From positions 2,852,001-2,916,000 of the forward strand of contig CM074518.1 in the NCBI GenBank assembly GCA_037379345.1: 64,000 nucleotides of DNA. Reading direction: 5' to 3'. Made by a program: the position numbers. Positions 21,001-30,000 of this stretch are shown here, piece after piece. The stretch comes from Perna viridis (Eukaryota). Numbering within the stretch: position 1 is the first letter of the stretch; the number at the start of each line of letters is the position of its first letter.

Positions 21001-24000
21001 ATACCTAGTAAACAAAGGGTATTAAGAGGATCCAAAAATGCTTATTTTTTTTCCTTCTAATTCCTAAATAGTCAGAGCCATTACCCTTATAATCAATCTT
21101 AATCTTCCTAGTGTGATAGGTTAACTATTCTGTTCAAGGTTCATAAACATCCTTTGAGTAATACACTAGTAATTGCACAAAAAAACACAACCAGTCCGCA
21201 CACATTGAAACTGTGGAATAAAAATATATTCCAAATGGAAACACTTCTAGTGAAATATCTGAATAACACGGAAACATGAGTTAAACAAGAAGAAATTATT
21301 TCACCTTTTATTTATCAAATATAATGTATATGACACCACCACGACCAAATGATATTGAAAGGTACTGCTATCCTATAATGTCTATGTCTTCTTCCTCAGG
21401 AGGTGGTGTTAACCTTGACATAGACAAAACCTCCTCCTTCACAAACAATCCACTCCGTCTTTCTTTTAGTATTTGTCTGTATTCTTTCCTCTGTCTCTGT
21501 CTATCATGCCGATGTCGGTTTTTCCTTTCCGTTGACATCTGCCTCTATAAAAAAACAATGTTCAAAATTAGAAACTAGTTTAGTACAAACAAACAGTAAA
21601 AGGAAAAATAATTTTTCTGTGCTTTTTAACCAATTCTTACTTTCTGTTCTTAACATTACTTTTTTGTGTGAATATCACAATTATGAATGACAGTACTAAA
21701 ATAGGTACTTGCAAAAGTTGACTGAGTTCTGCCTTTCTTAAGTGGAACACAGCAGAGTGAGTAAAAAGCATTCTGGTTCTTTTAATTCTGAACAAGTTTA
21801 ATTATCTTCTTTTAAAATATTTCATATAATGTCATGTATAAGCCAGTTATAATTTGGAACAATCAAAAGCTCAAACACAATTCATTTATTCCAGATTTGA
21901 AAATCAAGGAGATTGTTGCATTGTATGTCACTGTTGAAAAAAACAAAACAGTTTCTATGTATGTTGCATACCTTTTTACTTTTTCTGGGTGAACTATGTA
22001 GACTGTCATCTGATTGACATTCTAAACAACAATGCGTTTTAATATAGTCTTGTATCTTCTCAATCTTTTCCTCTGTCATGTTTGTAATGTCTGAAAACAA
22101 ATTAAACCTAATTCAGCTCTGTATAATGTATTATATAAGCTCAATGAGGGGTATATTATTGATATCTCTGTGACACACTCAAAGCTCAGTATAGCGTATA
22201 TTAGAACAGACATCATTGTTTCCTGTTTAATTTTTCTCCTCATAGCCTTGAGTGTTCACATTTATTATAATACTCTCTGATTTTAGAAAGAATGGTTGCA
22301 AAGAAGTTTTATGAATTTAAACAAGAATTAAATCACCATATATGGAAAATAATCAAAGTCCTTGGTAAACTGAAACTGTATTTTTTCTGAAAGTCAATCC
22401 CAACATATAGCATACCTACAGGAAGAATGTGTTTAAATTTCAGGCCGCTGTAAAGAGTAGTTGCTGAGAAATTTGACTTTCAAACATAAAAAGTCAAAAA
22501 TAAACAAAGTCCTCGGTAAACTAAAAGTTGTTTTCACATTTCTCTGAAAATGAATCCAACTATATGGCATTCCTATGGGAAGAATGATTAAAATTTCAAG
22601 CACCTGAAACGAGTCCATGCTAAGAAAAATGCGACAGGCAACATGGTAAAACTGTACACCCCTTTTTCTTTGAAGCAGAGGTATAAAAATCCAATCCATC
22701 TGCACCTGATAATTGATTTTGGAGCAGAGGTATAAAAATCCAATCCATCTGCACCTGATAACTGATTTTGGAGCAGAGGTATAAAAATCCAATCCATCTG
22801 CACCTGATAACCGATTTCAGAGCAGAGGTATAAAAATCCAATCCATCTGCACCTGATAACTGATTTCAGAGCAGAGGTATAAAAATCCAATCCATCTGAA
22901 CCGGATAACTGATTTCAGAGCAGAGGTATAAAAATCCAATCCATCTGAACCTGATAACTGATTTTAGAGCAGATGTATAAAAATCCAATCCATCTGCACC
23001 TGATAACTGATTTTGGAGCAGGGGTATAAAAATCCAATCCACAATGACTACCAGGTAACTAATTTCGGAGCAGGGGTATAATCATCCAATCCATCTGGAC
23101 CTGATAACTGATTTTGGAACAGGGGTATAAAAATCCAATCCAACTGATTGAATCTATACAAGATCATGTGACCTTTACTATGAACTTTATATAGGATCAA
23201 AATTTAATTTTAAAGCTTTAATTTTTTATTCTTTTTTAACAAGTGACAGAACATTATCCATTTTCTCAAAGTATGGAGCAATGAAGTGTGCTTTATTAAG
23301 ATTATAATACAGATTTATTGATATGATGATGTCATTATGTAACACAGAAGGTCAGTATAGCGTATATTGTTTTACTTCCTGTTTCTCCTACTTCGTGTTT
23401 TACAGTACAAACAGATCTCTATTTTAAGTTAGTTTAAATAAGGTTGGCTATGCATCCATTTTTTTAATAATGACTTTTTTTTCAAATAAAGACATCAACG
23501 AATTTAAGACTTGTGTCAAAATTGGAAGATTTAAAACATCTCATTGAAATTCTATTTTATCATTGTTTTACCAAGAGCTGGCAATTTATGAAGCAATTAC
23601 CCCAAGAAATATTAACCTGCCATTAATAACTTTTGGGTACAAATAGAATTTTTTTTGTATGTATCAGTTAGCTACATCATAATTAAGCATGTTTAATGAA
23701 ACAAAAAATGACACCTATTGTAAATTCTTGATATAGAAACAAAATTTTTAGAGGCTCAGTATAGCGTATATTATTGCAGACAGTTTCATTTCCTGTTCAA
23801 TATTGTTTCCTCATTGCCTCATTTCTATTTATATCAATTTAATTTTTTACTAATTTATTAAGTAATTACTAATTTTTAGAAATAAATCACCTCAATTGTA
23901 TGACAAATTTTTCTTCATTTCTTGACCTGTATTAGTCTGACAGATTGATCAAATCTCTAAAATAATTAAAATTTCAACAACACAATCAGACTTTTTCGTA

Positions 24001-27000: not shown

Positions 27001-30000
27001 GTTTGTTGTTGCGTATCAGACATATTCTTGTACACAAAGATTGTCATAACATGTCACCCTGTATTAAATCCATCAGACTACAGAGAACTGTTGGTAGTTA
27101 TCCAGGATTGTTAATGTTGCACTGTACACACATCTTGTGACCATATAAAGTGATGAAAACAAGAAACCTATAAGTGCCTTTAAAGATTTAGAATATTGCT
27201 CCACTAAGGGCAATAACTCCAACATGGCTAAGGTCTCACTAACCACTTCCGGGTCAAATGGCCACCCCCCTATGTAGTACCAAAAACACACTGAACCTAG
27301 ACATATGCATTGTAAGTGCATTATTTGTGTGTATTACGATTAAAAGTAGTCAAAATAAAGCTGAGAATATGTACTTTAAAATTATATAGCTTTATATGTA
27401 ATTAACTACAAAAGTGTATGAATATTGTTTACATGTGTGAGTAATTTGCCTCCATGCTGTCAATTAGCAAAACAAGTAAAAATGTGGATTTTCAGTATTA
27501 TTTATTCAAGTAAATTTTGTGAAAAATTTCTAGTCATCGTACCATTAGCATAATGATTTTGGAAGCCTTACTTCCAAGCTTCGCAACCGTATGCAACTTT
27601 AAGATATCATTTGTCCTGGAAATTCACAGTGAGACTTTGAAAATTACTTTTTTAACATGTAAAGAAATGGTAACGTAAGATTTGACCAGAGATAGATCTC
27701 ATCATGCTGAACACTTTTACCAAGTCAGAATTCAGCTAAACCTAACGCTTTAGGAGATATATGCAGTTTCAGAGAAAAAGAGTTTTGTGTAATTGTTAAT
27801 GACGACGATGACAGACCCCAAGTGATGGCAATAGCTCACAAGCTAAAAAAGACAAAATTTTCAAGAAAAGGTATCTGTTATTACTTATAAAGCAAAAAAA
27901 TATGATGGCAGCCATGAAAACTTGTCCAAGAGTTATGGTTTATACTGTTATCCTGCATAAAAACCACCAGACTAAAAAGTCAGGTGATTGCTATCCAGAA
28001 TAATTGCTGTAGCACTTCACGAACCACCTGTAGCCATACAATCAATGACAACAAGAAACCTATAAGTGCCTTTAAAGATTTAGAATATTGCTCCACTATT
28101 TACTTGAAATTTCTTTTTTCAAAGTAAGTTAAACAGCCATTTTGATCGTACCTATTTTTTTCCCTTTTAAACTTTAAAAAAAAAAAGCCAAACACTACTA
28201 TCAGCAAGACCTTGTGGAGTCAAAAAGTAGTTATATGATTGATCAACTTCTATACTTAAGAAACCATAACTAAAATACAACAGATTAATTTTTACAGAAA
28301 TCAATCACTAATTGATAAGATGAAGAAAATAAACTTTCAAGCAAAATAGATATTTTGAAAACCCATTACTTTTCATATTTCAAGCATTAAACCTGAAGAT
28401 TTTAGAGCAGAAAGAGCCCACTCTTTCAATTAAGTTGAACTGTGATAACCAAAGAAATCAAACATATTTCAGAGTGCTAGTTAGTTTAAAGTTGGCTCAA
28501 TTTTTTTTAATAAATTAAAAAAAGACACAATTTTCAAGAAAAGGTATCTGTTACTATTTATACAGCAAAAAATATGATGGCAGCCATGAAAACTTGTCCA
28601 AGAATTATGGTTTATACTGTTATCCTGCATAAAAGCCACCAGACTACAGTCAGGTGATTGTTATCCAGAATCACTACTGTAGCACTTCACGAACCTCCTG
28701 TAGCCATACAATCAATGACAACCAACCTCCTGTAGTCATACAATCAATGACAACCAACCTCCTGTAGCCATACAATCAATGACAACCAACGTCCTGTAGT
28801 TATACAATCAATGACCATGAACCTCCTGTAGTCATACAATCAATGACAACCAACCTCCTGTAGCCATACAATCAATACAACCAACCTCCTGTAGTCATAC
28901 AATCAATGACAACGAACCTCCTGTAGTCATACAATCAATGACAACCAACCTCCTGTAGCCATACAATCAATGACAACCAACCTCCTGTAGTCATACAATC
29001 AATGACAACGAACCTCCTGTAGCCATACAATCAATGACCACGAACCTCCTGTAGCCATACAATCAATGACAACCAACCTCCTGTAGTCATACAATCAATG
29101 ACAACGAACCTCCTGTAGCCATACAATCAATGACAACCAACCTCCTGTAGCCATACAATCAATGACAACCAACCTCCTGTAGGCCATACAATTTAATGAC
29201 AACCAACCTCCTGTAGTCATACAATCAATGACAACGAACGTCCGGTAGGCCATACAATCAATGACGACCAACCTCCTGTAGTCATACAATCAATGACAAC
29301 CAACCTCCTGTAGCCATACAATCAATGACCACGAACCTCCTGTAGCCATACAATCAATGACAACCAACCTCCAGTAGCCATACAATCAATGACAACCAAC
29401 CTCCTGTAGTCATACAATCAATGACAACCAACCTCCTGTAGCCATACAATCAATGACCACAAATCTCCTGTAGCCATACAGTCAATGACAACAAGAAACC
29501 TATAAGTGCTTCCTACTTTCATTTACTGCAACAAGGGTTATGTTATAGGTGGTAGTTTTTCTTAGAAAAGAAAGTGAAAACAAGGAGTATGTGAATCCTA
29601 CCAACATGAAAAAAAAAACTGACTAAGATACTGTGTGGACCTTCAAAGAATGGTCAGAACTTTCCCCAAGCTAGAGCCTGCCTTCAAGAAGGTTTAATAT
29701 GGGTTTTTGAGTGTATCAATCCTAATTGGACATTTGGTCAGAGAATTTGAAGACTAAACCAAAAGTTTTGATCTCATAAAACAAGTAATTATGCTGATGT
29801 GGAAATAAAGTCACAGTCCCAGTCTGGGTTACCTATTTTTTTAATTCTCGCAATGCCCAAATGTTCTGACATCATTAGTAATTTAGTTTGATTTTTTCAA
29901 GTTTATCACTCCAAGCTAAGATTATCTTTTCCTCAATTCTACCTAGGCTTGTAGATTACAGTTCCACAAAAGGAAAATGTAAAAAATTTAATTTGAAATT

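What the first reader, a model, noticed from the sequence alone, without database searches (positions are those of the whole stretch)
22181..29509. FAM199X as a snoRNA host with several snoRNAs per intron
Seen: intron 22091-25930 holds three C/D copies and one H/ACA copy; intron 26083-31541 holds four H/ACA copies. All are on the FAM199X sense strand. Established: vertebrate intronic snoRNAs are usually one per intron, and human U54 is hosted by RPS20. I know of no snoRNA-host role for FAM199X. One member of each family sits ~90-100 nt upstream of an acceptor, close to the usual position. Inference: the extra copies need endonucleolytic release or unannotated non-coding exons between them, or else they are silent.
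Basis: partly seen in the sequence, partly recalled or inferred. Interest (0 to 1): 0.7.

Follow-up and report, generated by a model that had tools for sequence, protein, structure and literature searches.

The report
Intronic snoRNA cluster in mussel FAM199X
Two neighbouring introns of a mussel-like FAM199X gene carry locally duplicated small nucleolar RNA genes (a U54-type methylation guide and an unassigned pseudouridylation-guide family), an arrangement already known from fruit fly and rice, so it is a real but fairly ordinary find.

Summary
The minus strand carries a FAM199X-like gene (Pfam PF15814 on single exons; 80-90% identical, exon by exon, to Mytilus FAM199X-like proteins).

They are not all equal. 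CD1 and CD2 are complete, while CD3 keeps only the guide and D box. H/ACA copies A and B are intact and 95% identical, yet their flanks are no more alike than random pairs. C is intact but has altered pockets. D is split by a 25-unit, 32-nt tandem array grown from its own 5' hairpin. E has a doubtful H box.

No element reaches an Rfam gathering score (snoU54 32.5 and 29.6 against 35; SNORA14 30.0 and 26.3 against 36). Boxes, spacing, terminal stems and the U54 guide are nevertheless conserved.

Best reading: this is an intronic snoRNA gene cluster made by local duplication, partly functional and partly decaying. Expression, processing and conservation in other bivalves could not be tested. Interest is modest.

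The parts
21368..36763 (-). FAM199X-like host gene, the coding part seen in the window. Exons are 36644-36763, 36168-36351, 31542-31830, 25931-26082, 21972-22090 and 21371-21544, with the stop codon at 21368-21370.
   Evidence: Single exons match Pfam PF15814. Exon-by-exon blastp and tblastn against P0001-P0003 map the exons contiguously. P0002 is named FAM199X-like, Mytilus galloprovincialis. Splice sites were read.
26083..31541 (-). Intron holding H/ACA copies D, C, B and A, in that 5' to 3' order.
   Evidence: GT and AG boundaries were read. The flanking exons abut at P0001 residues 222, 223 and 224.
22091..25930 (-). Intron holding H/ACA copy E and C/D copies CD2, CD3 and CD1, in that 5' to 3' order.
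   Evidence: Boundaries were read. The flanking exons abut at P0001 residues 273, 274 and 275.
22179..22248 (-). CD1, a complete U54-type box C/D snoRNA candidate about 90 nt upstream of the acceptor.
   Evidence: snoU54 RF01277 scores 32.5 bits against a gathering score of 35, E=0.0014. It has C box AUGAGGA, D box CUGA and a 6-bp terminal stem.
23749..23819 (-). CD2, a complete U54-type box C/D snoRNA candidate.
   Evidence: snoU54 scores 29.6 bits, E=0.0086. Boxes and guide are 24 of 24 identical to CD1, against 23 of 35 for the internal part. The 5-bp terminal stem carries one change on both sides relative to CD1.
23345..23400 (-). CD3, a remnant that keeps the U54 guide, the D box and the 3' flank but has lost the C box and is shortened.
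   Evidence: Seen in the alignment and as an exact 16-mer. Only a partial U54 RF00206 match is found, 16.8 bits, E=0.6. Its fold is no better than shuffles, z=+0.85.
24435..24566 (-). H/ACA copy E. The 3' hairpin and both 3' pocket strands are identical to A, the 5' hairpin has diverged, and the H box is doubtful. A transposon end lies 3 nt upstream.
   Evidence: Own model R1 scores it 126.4 bits, but it is a training sequence.
26182..26316 (-). H/ACA copy A, intact, about 100 nt upstream of the acceptor.
   Evidence: It shows hairpin, H box ACAUUA, hairpin and ACA. The best Rfam match is SNORA14 at 30.0 bits against a gathering score of 36, E=3.2e-4 in a 156-nt search. The 3' pocket letters are shared with the SNORA50 consensus.
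27049..27183 (-). H/ACA copy B, intact. The body is 95% identical to A, and the flanks are at random-level identity.
27943..28075 (-). H/ACA copy C. The architecture is intact (H box ACAGCA), both pockets differ from A and B, and the 3' pocket tends to close in the fold.
28615..29509 (-). H/ACA copy D, a C-type copy whose 5' hairpin is interrupted by a tandem array of its own apical stem-loop. It shares its 3' flank with C.
   Evidence: Identity of the 3' flank to that of C is 0.86.
28692..29492 (.). A 32-nt tandem array of 25.0 units with 91% matches, lying inside copy D.
   Evidence: Tandem Repeats Finder; also family D1.
34773..34908 (-). F, a possible sixth, diverged H/ACA relative in the upstream intron 31831-36167. 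It has the A/B-type 5' pocket letters, an AUAGCA hinge and a terminal ACA.
   Evidence: Own model R1 scores it 26.3 bits with a rough E of about 1e-3 for the whole window. No Rfam H/ACA family matches it. Its fold is not better than shuffles, z=-0.07.

Best explanation
This is an intronic snoRNA gene cluster, built by repeated local duplication inside two adjacent introns of a mytilid-type FAM199X-like gene.

The cluster has two components:
- A U54-type box C/D guide. Its human counterpart directs 2'-O-methylation of 18S G644.
- An H/ACA family that no Rfam family claims. In copies A, B and E, the 3' pocket carries the guide letters of the SNORA50/SNORA36 clan, the guides for 18S U105 in human.

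Inferred mechanism:
1. The copies are transcribed as part of the FAM199X pre-mRNA.
2. snoRNP proteins assemble on each intact copy.
3. After splicing and debranching, exonucleases trim the intron up to the protected particles.
4. The acceptor-proximal copies (CD1, A) mature in the classical way.
5. Intact upstream copies (CD2, B) are freed by cuts in the 0.5-0.8 kb spacers, as in polycistronic and intronic clusters of yeast, plants and flies. Otherwise they stay joined to their neighbour as a snoRNA-ended RNA.
6. CD3 and D are dead copies. C and E are copies in decay or with changed specificity.

Shown here: the gene, the intron borders, the copies, their boxes, folds and duplication pattern, and selective conservation of the functional parts. 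Inferred only: expression, processing route and targets in this species.
For: Host identity and introns are established.

C/D evidence:
- Two full-length snoU54 matches lie just under the gathering score, with the guide matching 10 of 10 consensus letters.
- The 16-mer occurs 3 times against 0.04 expected.
- Between CD1 and CD2 the boxes and guide are 24 of 24 identical, against 23 of 35 for the internal part (Fisher one-sided p=7.5e-4).
- One terminal-stem pair is changed on both sides and kept.

H/ACA evidence:
- The consensus fold is hairpin-hinge-hairpin-tail with 30 pairs.
- 94.9% of cells are paired, against 29-49% when partners are slid.
- H and ACA boxes are in place, with 14-16 nt from pocket top to box (read).
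- Both A and C hit SNORA14 as their best Rfam family.
- The bodies of A and B are 0.95 identical while their 120-nt flanks are 0.54 and 0.47. Random window pairs give 0.554, sd 0.033, n=196. Similarity therefore starts and stops at the predicted RNA ends.
- The 3' pocket strands are 8 of 8 identical between A and E, although the 5' pocket 3' strand is only 2 of 9.
- The pocket letters AUAACU and UUUAA are shared with the SNORA50 consensus. The pocket's 3' strand equals the first 8 letters of the antisense oligonucleotide used for 18S U105 in PMC6776443 (passage).

Precedent: intronic gene clusters are reported in rice and Drosophila (PMC2780460 passage). Rnt1 cuts between the snoRNAs of polycistronic precursors (PMC10557570 passages).
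Against: - No element reaches a curated Rfam threshold. The gathering-score scan of the whole window found nothing in the region.
- The SNORA14 matches appeared only when about 150 nt were searched alone. They were absent from the 13-kb scan at E up to 10.
- The SNORA50 match is 14.2 bits against a gathering score of 90, E about 1.
- There is no covariation in the H/ACA fold: 0 of 30 pairs changed on both sides, and shuffles do as well.
- The folds of A and B are not better than shuffles (z=-1.09 and -0.62).
- The Fisher test on CD1 and CD2 uses elements chosen after seeing the family, and rests on only two sequences.
- High A-B identity could come from recent gene conversion rather than selection.
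- At least 2 of the 8 copies are plainly defective, so duplication debris is present.
- No RNA data, no rRNA of this species and no second bivalve genome were available.
Confidence: 0.65

Rival explanations
1. There is one working snoRNA per intron. Only the acceptor-proximal copies (CD1 and A) are processed into stable snoRNAs. All upstream copies are silent by-products of tandem duplication that the exonucleases degrade or that never assemble.
For:
- CD3 lacks a C box.
- D is split by an 800-nt array.
- C has altered pockets and a self-closing 3' pocket.
- E has a doubtful H box and a transposon end 3 nt upstream.
Against: CD2 keeps 24 of 24 box and guide positions and a compensated terminal stem while its interior has drifted. 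B keeps 95% identity to A with unrelated flanks. Both patterns are hard to explain for untranscribed or unassembled debris, unless gene conversion maintains them.
Confidence: 0.25
2. The introns give rise to snoRNA-ended long RNAs (sno-lncRNAs). After debranching, trimming stops at the outermost snoRNPs and the stretch between them survives. That stretch would be about 1.9 kb from C to A and about 2.4 kb from E to CD1. The latter would have an H/ACA 5' end and a C/D 3' end.
For: Each intron holds two or more intact-looking snoRNA units. Introns with two snoRNAs produce sno-lncRNAs of both C/D and H/ACA type in mammals (passages in PMC5054931 and PMC11028025).
Against: The products are known so far from mammals only, in the passages read. 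Nothing in the sequence distinguishes this from endonucleolytic release. The spacers contain a transposon-like element and tandem arrays and show no conservation between copies.
Confidence: 0.15
3. Unannotated non-coding or alternative exons lie between the copies. In some transcripts each snoRNA would then have an intron of its own, as in dedicated snoRNA host genes.
For: None is direct.
Against: Exon translations abut without missing residues in 3 of 3 related proteins, so no constitutive coding exon lies there. Extra exons would interrupt a conserved reading frame.
Confidence: 0.07
4. These are not snoRNA genes at all, but a local repeat family that happens to resemble snoRNAs.
For: All Rfam scores are below gathering. 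There is no covariation. The region is rich in tandem and dispersed repeats.
Against: - Two unrelated repeat families would each have to mimic a different snoRNA class, with correct boxes, spacing and stems, all on the sense strand of introns.
- The C/D guide equals the U54 consensus.
- Similarity between copies is confined to the RNA-sized unit.
Confidence: 0.04

Closest known systems
Intronic snoRNA gene clusters of Drosophila melanogaster and rice. Huang et al. 2004/2005 and Liang et al. 2002 are known here only from reference lists and a passage in PMC2780460; the papers themselves are not held.
   Same: Several snoRNA genes lie in sense orientation inside one intron of a protein-coding gene. 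The members are isoforms produced by local duplication. By recall, the fly clusters are dominated by H/ACA snoRNAs.
   Different: The host here is a FAM199X-like gene in a mytilid-type bivalve. One intron mixes C/D and H/ACA members. Several members are visibly decaying. Expression is untested here.
U54 / SNORD54 (Rfam clan CL00008: snoU54 RF01277 and U54 RF00206).
   Same: The C box AUGAGGA, the D box and the 10-nt guide are identical to the RF01277 consensus, and the match runs over the full model length.
   Different: Scores are 32.5 and 29.6 against a gathering score of 35. Human SNORD54 lies in RPS20 and targets 18S G644 (PMC3766210 table), whereas here there are 2 intact copies plus 1 remnant in FAM199X. 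The D' and C' region differs.
SNORA50 / SNORA36 / SNORA35 clan (CL00034), the guides for 18S U105. SNORA36A is listed with U1244 and U105 in the PMC3766210 table. That SNORA50 guides U105 is recalled, not seen in any call.
   Same: The 3' pocket strands AUAACU and UUUAA are shared with the SNORA50 consensus. The GCAC...GUGC basal stem and the hinge resemble SNORA35.
   Different: Scores are far below the thresholds (14.2 against 90; 14.8 against 39). The 5' hairpin and its pocket are unrelated. The target in this species is unverified.
SNORA14 (RF00397).
   Same: It is the best-scoring Rfam family for both A (30.0 bits) and C (26.3 bits), with full-length alignments.
   Different: Both scores are below the gathering score of 36. 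The pocket letters agree on only one strand of the 3' pocket, so this is shared architecture rather than shown orthology.
sno-lncRNAs (for example the SNORD116-region RNAs and SLERT).
   Same: The precondition is met: two or more snoRNAs lie in one intron.
   Different: No RNA evidence exists here. A mixed H/ACA-C/D pair, as would arise in intron 22091-25930, is not mentioned in the passages read.

Membership tests
snoU54 (Rfam RF01277) | Covariance-model score at or above the gathering score (35 bits). | tested here: not met
   CD1 scores 32.5 and CD2 29.6 bits. There was no hit at gathering. CD3 was not matched by this model.
snoU54 (Rfam RF01277) | C box near the 5' end, D box CUGA near the 3' end, and a short terminal stem. 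| tested here: met
   CD1 and CD2 have AUGAGGA, CUGA and stems of 6 and 5 bp. CD3 fails: its C box reads AGUAGGA and it has no consistent stem.
snoU54 (Rfam RF01277) | Guide upstream of the D box identical to the family guide. | tested here: met
   UAUACGCUAU matches the consensus at 10 of 10 positions in CD1 and CD2. The 16-mer is present in all 3 copies.
snoU54 (Rfam RF01277) | Complementarity to 18S rRNA of the same species at the G644-equivalent site. | not testable with these tools
   No eukaryotic rRNA sequence is available in the window or in the open collections.
Box H/ACA snoRNA (class) | Hairpin-hinge-hairpin-tail fold of about 130 nt. | tested here: met
   The consensus fold has 30 pairs in 4 helices and 94.9% of cells are paired. 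However, 0 pairs show changes on both sides.
Box H/ACA snoRNA (class) | H box ANANNA in the hinge, and ACA three nucleotides from the 3' end. | tested here: met
   The H box reads ACAUUA in A and B, ACAGCA in C and ACAGUA in D. ACA is present in all 5 copies. E is inconclusive: the aligned hinge reads AUAUAG, and an alternative AGAUGA overlaps the next stem. True 3' ends are unknown.
Box H/ACA snoRNA (class) | 14-16 nt between the top of each pocket and the H or ACA box. | tested here: met
   Counted on A: 16 nt for the 5' hairpin and 14-15 nt for the 3' hairpin.
SNORA14 (RF00397) | Score at or above gathering (36 bits). | tested here: not met
   A scores 30.0 bits and C 26.3 bits.
SNORA50/36 clan (CL00034) | Score at or above gathering, and a shared guide pocket. 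| tested here: not met
   The score is 14.2 against 90. The guide letters are shared, which bears on what the RNA works like, not on membership.
Intronic snoRNA gene cluster | Two or more snoRNA genes in sense orientation within a single intron of a host gene. | tested here: met
   Intron 26083-31541 holds A, B and C intact plus D. Intron 22091-25930 holds CD1 and CD2 intact plus E and CD3.
Intronic snoRNA gene cluster | Members accumulate as separate mature snoRNAs. | not testable with these tools
   No RNA data are available.
sno-lncRNA | A stable RNA bounded by two snoRNAs of one intron. | not testable with these tools
   Only the genomic precondition is met.
FAM199X (Pfam PF15814) | Score above the curated cut-off (27 bits). 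| tested here: met
   Single exons score 41.0 and 34.4 bits. The nearest named protein is FAM199X-like of Mytilus galloprovincialis.

The most novel reading that the evidence does not exclude
The two introns are true polycistronic snoRNA units in a lophotrochozoan. Several copies per intron would be expressed, either released by an endonuclease acting in the spacers or retained as snoRNA-capped long RNAs, including a hybrid with an H/ACA 5' end and a C/D 3' end. The paralogues would be dividing the two guide functions of the ancestral H/ACA RNA between them: E keeps the A/B-type 3' pocket and candidate F keeps the A/B-type 5' pocket.
Probability: 0.2. Interest if true: 0.5.

Novelty: new member of a known kind. 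Interest (0 to 1): 0.3.

Why it matters
- It adds a bivalve example to the intronic-cluster mode of snoRNA organisation, so far described for plants and flies.
- It shows that the U54 guide sits in a different host gene than in human.
- It gives a compact locus in which birth, divergence and death of snoRNA paralogues can be read side by side. The stages are intact pairs, a pocket-changed copy, a box-less remnant and a copy blown up by a minisatellite of its own hairpin.
- It also shows that curated Rfam thresholds miss plausible molluscan snoRNAs.
- It opens no long-standing question.

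Tried and rejected
**Rfam**
- The Rfam scan at gathering thresholds over the whole window found nothing in the region.
- SNORA14 orthology was rejected: scores are subthreshold and the pockets agree on one strand only.

**Individual elements**
- CD3 as an intact snoRNA was rejected. I considered that its guide might serve as a D'-box guide, as in RF00206. I found no C box upstream and no D box downstream by reading.
- I looked for further copies elsewhere in the window. 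blastn found none. My own covariance model found only candidate F and a single hairpin at 37299-37379.

**Structure**
- I looked for covariation support for the H/ACA fold and found none.

**Origin of the copies**
- Retroposition was considered and rejected. No A-tails were seen at the 3' ends, and C and D share genomic flanks.
- The inverted-repeat tool did not report the transposon ends at seed 8. A direct comparison did.

**Literature**
- Huang 2005 and Liang 2002 are not held.
- PMC11613181 and PMC12427106 gave nothing usable on SNORA50 targets.

**Targets**
- The target of the 5' pocket could not be identified.

Full report
**Host gene.** The gene lies on the minus strand.
- Exons, translated one at a time, match Pfam PF15814 (FAM199X). 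Exon 25932-26081 gives E=1.7e-10 at 41 bits. The last exon 21371-21544 gives E=1.7e-08. An upstream exon matches weakly (E=0.04).
- A search with the 50-residue exon alone returned 3 proteins out of 24 candidates, all carrying PF15814. They are an unnamed one (P0001, 90% identical), FAM199X-like of Mytilus galloprovincialis (P0002, 82%) and a Mytilus coruscus protein (P0003, 80%).
- Exon-by-exon blastp places the window's exons at P0001 residues 63-123, 150-222, 224-273, 275-314 and 315-372. The single missing residues are the split codons. tblastn adds an exon at 36644-36763.
- The introns 26083-31541 and 22091-25930 are therefore real, and no coding exon lies inside them.
- The window looks like a mytilid bivalve other than the two named Mytilus species. 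Nothing in it was taken for human.

**C/D elements.**
- At gathering thresholds Rfam reports nothing in the region.
- At E-value thresholds, a 13-kb scan gives two full-length matches to snoU54 (RF01277, gathering 35) on the minus strand. They are 22179-22248 (32.5 bits, E=0.0014) and 23749-23819 (29.6 bits, E=0.0086).
- Both have the family's C box AUGAGGA, the D box CUGA and the guide UAUACGCUAU. That guide is identical to the consensus at 10 of 10 positions.
- The 16-nt guide+D word occurs three times in the window, all on the minus strand of this intron. With up to two mismatches allowed, 0.04 occurrences are expected, and 0 of 100 shuffles reach three.
- Between CD1 and CD2 the C box, guide and D box are 24 of 24 identical, while the internal part is 23 of 35 (one-sided Fisher p=7.5e-4). 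This is a post-hoc partition of two sequences.
- Their terminal stems have 6 and 5 pairs. One pair is A-U in CD1 and G-C in CD2 (read).
- The third occurrence, CD3 (about 23345-23400), aligns only from the guide onward. It has AGUAGGA where the C box should be, is about 15 nt shorter, and folds no better than shuffles. Searched alone, it gives only a partial U54 (RF00206) match of 16.8 bits, E=0.6. It is a remnant.
- Human SNORD54 is listed with host RPS20 and target 18S G644 in a table of PMC3766210 (passage).

**H/ACA elements.**
- Five related units lie on the minus strand: E 24435-24566, A 26182-26316, B 27049-27183, C 27943-28075 and D 28615-29509.
- A, B, C and E share a consensus fold of 30 pairs in four helices. 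It consists of a 5' hairpin with an internal pocket, a hinge, a 3' hairpin with a pocket, and a tail.
- The hinge carries ANANNA (ACAUUA in A and B, ACAGCA in C, ACAGUA in D). ACA follows the second hairpin in all five. Pocket-to-box distances are 14-16 nt, counted on A.
- E's aligned hinge does not fit ANANNA. The only fitting word overlaps the next stem.
- 94.9% of pair cells are standard pairs, against 29-49% when partners are slid. No pair shows a change on both sides and shuffles do as well, so the fold is supported by conservation and one-sided changes only.
- The folds of A and B are not more stable than shuffles (z=-1.09 and -0.62). Those of C and E are (z=-5.07 and -3.89). In C this is because the 3' pocket closes on itself.
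- Rfam assigns no family. Searched alone, A and C both give SNORA14 as best match (30.0 and 26.3 bits against a gathering score of 36). These matches were not listed in the 13-kb scan.

**Likely target of the 3' pocket.**
- The 3' hairpin of A, searched alone, aligns weakly to SNORA50 (14.2 bits against a gathering score of 90, E about 1). In that alignment both pocket strands, AUAACU and UUUAA, coincide with the consensus.
- The pocket's 3' strand with its neighbour, GAUUUAAU, equals the first eight letters of the antisense oligonucleotide that PMC6776443 used to address U105 of 18S rRNA (methods passage).
- SNORA36A, of the same Rfam clan as SNORA50, is tabulated with targets 18S U1244 and U105 (PMC3766210).
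- The 3' pocket of A, B and E therefore works like a guide for the U105-equivalent site. That SNORA50 itself guides U105 is my recollection.
- The rRNA of this species was not available, so no target was verified. The 5' pocket has no identified target.

**How the copies arose and which look alive.**
- The bodies of A and B are 0.95 identical, yet the 120 nt on either side are 0.54 and 0.47 identical. That is no better than random pairs from the window (mean 0.554, sd 0.033, n=196). Similarity thus begins and ends at the predicted RNA ends, as expected from selection on the RNA or from conversion confined to it.
- C and D share their 3' flank (0.86) and are a recent segmental duplicate.
- B shares 54 nt at 98% with C. 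These are 30 nt of 5' flank plus the first 24 nt of the body (family D11). This points to exchange among copies.
- By region, the basal stem of the 5' hairpin is 10 of 10 identical in all pairs.
- The two strands of the 3' pocket are 8 of 8 identical between A and E, but only 5 of 8 between A and C.
- The 3' strand of the 5' pocket is 9 of 9 identical between A and B, 4 of 9 between A and C, and 2 of 9 between A and E.
- D carries a 32-nt tandem array of 25.0 units with 91% matches at 28692-29492. Its unit is the apical stem-loop of its own 5' hairpin (read). D cannot make a canonical 130-nt RNA.

**A possible sixth relative.**
- My own covariance model (R1, built from A, B, C and E) finds one more candidate on the same strand. 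This is F at 34773-34908, in the upstream intron 31831-36167 (26.3 bits, rough E about 1e-3 for the window).
- F has a GCAC...GUGC-type basal stem, the A/B-type 5' pocket letters (GGUUU and AUGUGUG), an AUAGCA hinge, a good 3' hairpin and a terminal ACA.
- Its upper 5' stem is poor, its fold is no better than shuffles, and Rfam gives no H/ACA match. It is a lead, not a finding.

**Comparison with what is known.**
- Animal genomes mostly follow one snoRNA per intron (PMC11028025 passage). [quoted passage not shown] 2004 and 2005 in the reference list of PMC5932544). Those primary papers are not held.
- A review states that within introns snoRNAs can be monocistronic or clustered in polycistronic units. 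It also states that yeast Rnt1 cleaves between the snoRNAs of polycistronic precursors (PMC10557570 passages).
- Introns with two snoRNAs can give sno-lncRNAs (PMC5054931 and PMC11028025 passages).
- A full-text search for FAM199X with snoRNA returned 2 papers, both incidental judging by the listing. A search for snoRNA, Mytilus and host gene returned 2 papers, neither on this topic judging by the listing.
- I therefore know of no report of this host. The arrangement itself is a known kind.

**Verdict.**
- Most likely (0.65) this is an intronic snoRNA cluster made by local duplication. It has at least four working genes (CD1, CD2, A, B) and several decaying ones.
- The route by which upstream copies mature is open. 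It could be endonucleolytic release or retention as snoRNA-ended RNA.

**Unchecked.**
- Expression.
- The rRNA targets in this species.
- The orthologous introns of other bivalves.
- Supplementary tables of published snoRNA surveys.

Noticed in passing
window 24564-25661 and 30013-31130: There are two copies, 93-97% identical, of a roughly 1.1-kb element, one in each snoRNA-bearing intron. Each is bounded by an imperfect terminal inverted repeat (22 of 26 positions) that starts with TACAGT, so TA flanks the CAGT...ACTG ends. It looks like a non-autonomous DNA transposon. The Tc1/mariner-like assignment is recalled and was not tested. The copy in intron 22091-25930 ends 3 nt upstream of H/ACA copy E.
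   Followed up: partly
window 28692-29492: A 32-nt tandem array of 25 units derives from the apical 5' stem-loop of H/ACA copy D. A snoRNA hairpin has in effect turned into a minisatellite, and each unit can refold into the hairpin.
   Followed up: partly
window 22669-23146: A 49-nt tandem array of 9.7 units with 90% matches lies between CD3 and CD1. Its origin is unknown.
   Followed up: no
window 34773-34908 (-): This is a possible diverged H/ACA relative (F) in the next intron upstream of the same gene. It scores 26.3 bits with my own model, gets no Rfam support, and has the A/B-type 5' pocket letters.
   Followed up: partly
window 37299-37379 (-): A single stable hairpin (z=-2.53) has a GCACUG...CAGUGC stem followed by AAAAUA. 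It matches the 5' half of SNORA35 weakly (23.4 bits, E=0.4) and lies upstream of exon 36644-36763. It may be a relic of another copy.
   Followed up: partly
window 39567-39612 (+): This is the only Rfam hit at gathering score in the window: a histone 3' UTR stem-loop at 34.3 bits against a gathering score of 34. No histone-like reading frame was obvious upstream in the ORF list. An N run lies at 38763-38908 and was left untouched.
   Followed up: no
window 31675-31781 (-), exon 31542-31830: A 45-nt repeat of 2.4 units lies inside a coding exon. It encodes a repeated Cys-Asp-Asn-Cys-Asp-Thr-Arg motif. This exon is the least conserved part of the protein, at 30-57% identity to relatives.
   Followed up: no
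window 27153-27206 and 28045-28098: B and C share 54 nt at 98% identity, made up of 30 nt of 5' flank plus the first 24 nt of the RNA. The rest of B is A-like, which suggests recombination or conversion between copies.
   Followed up: partly
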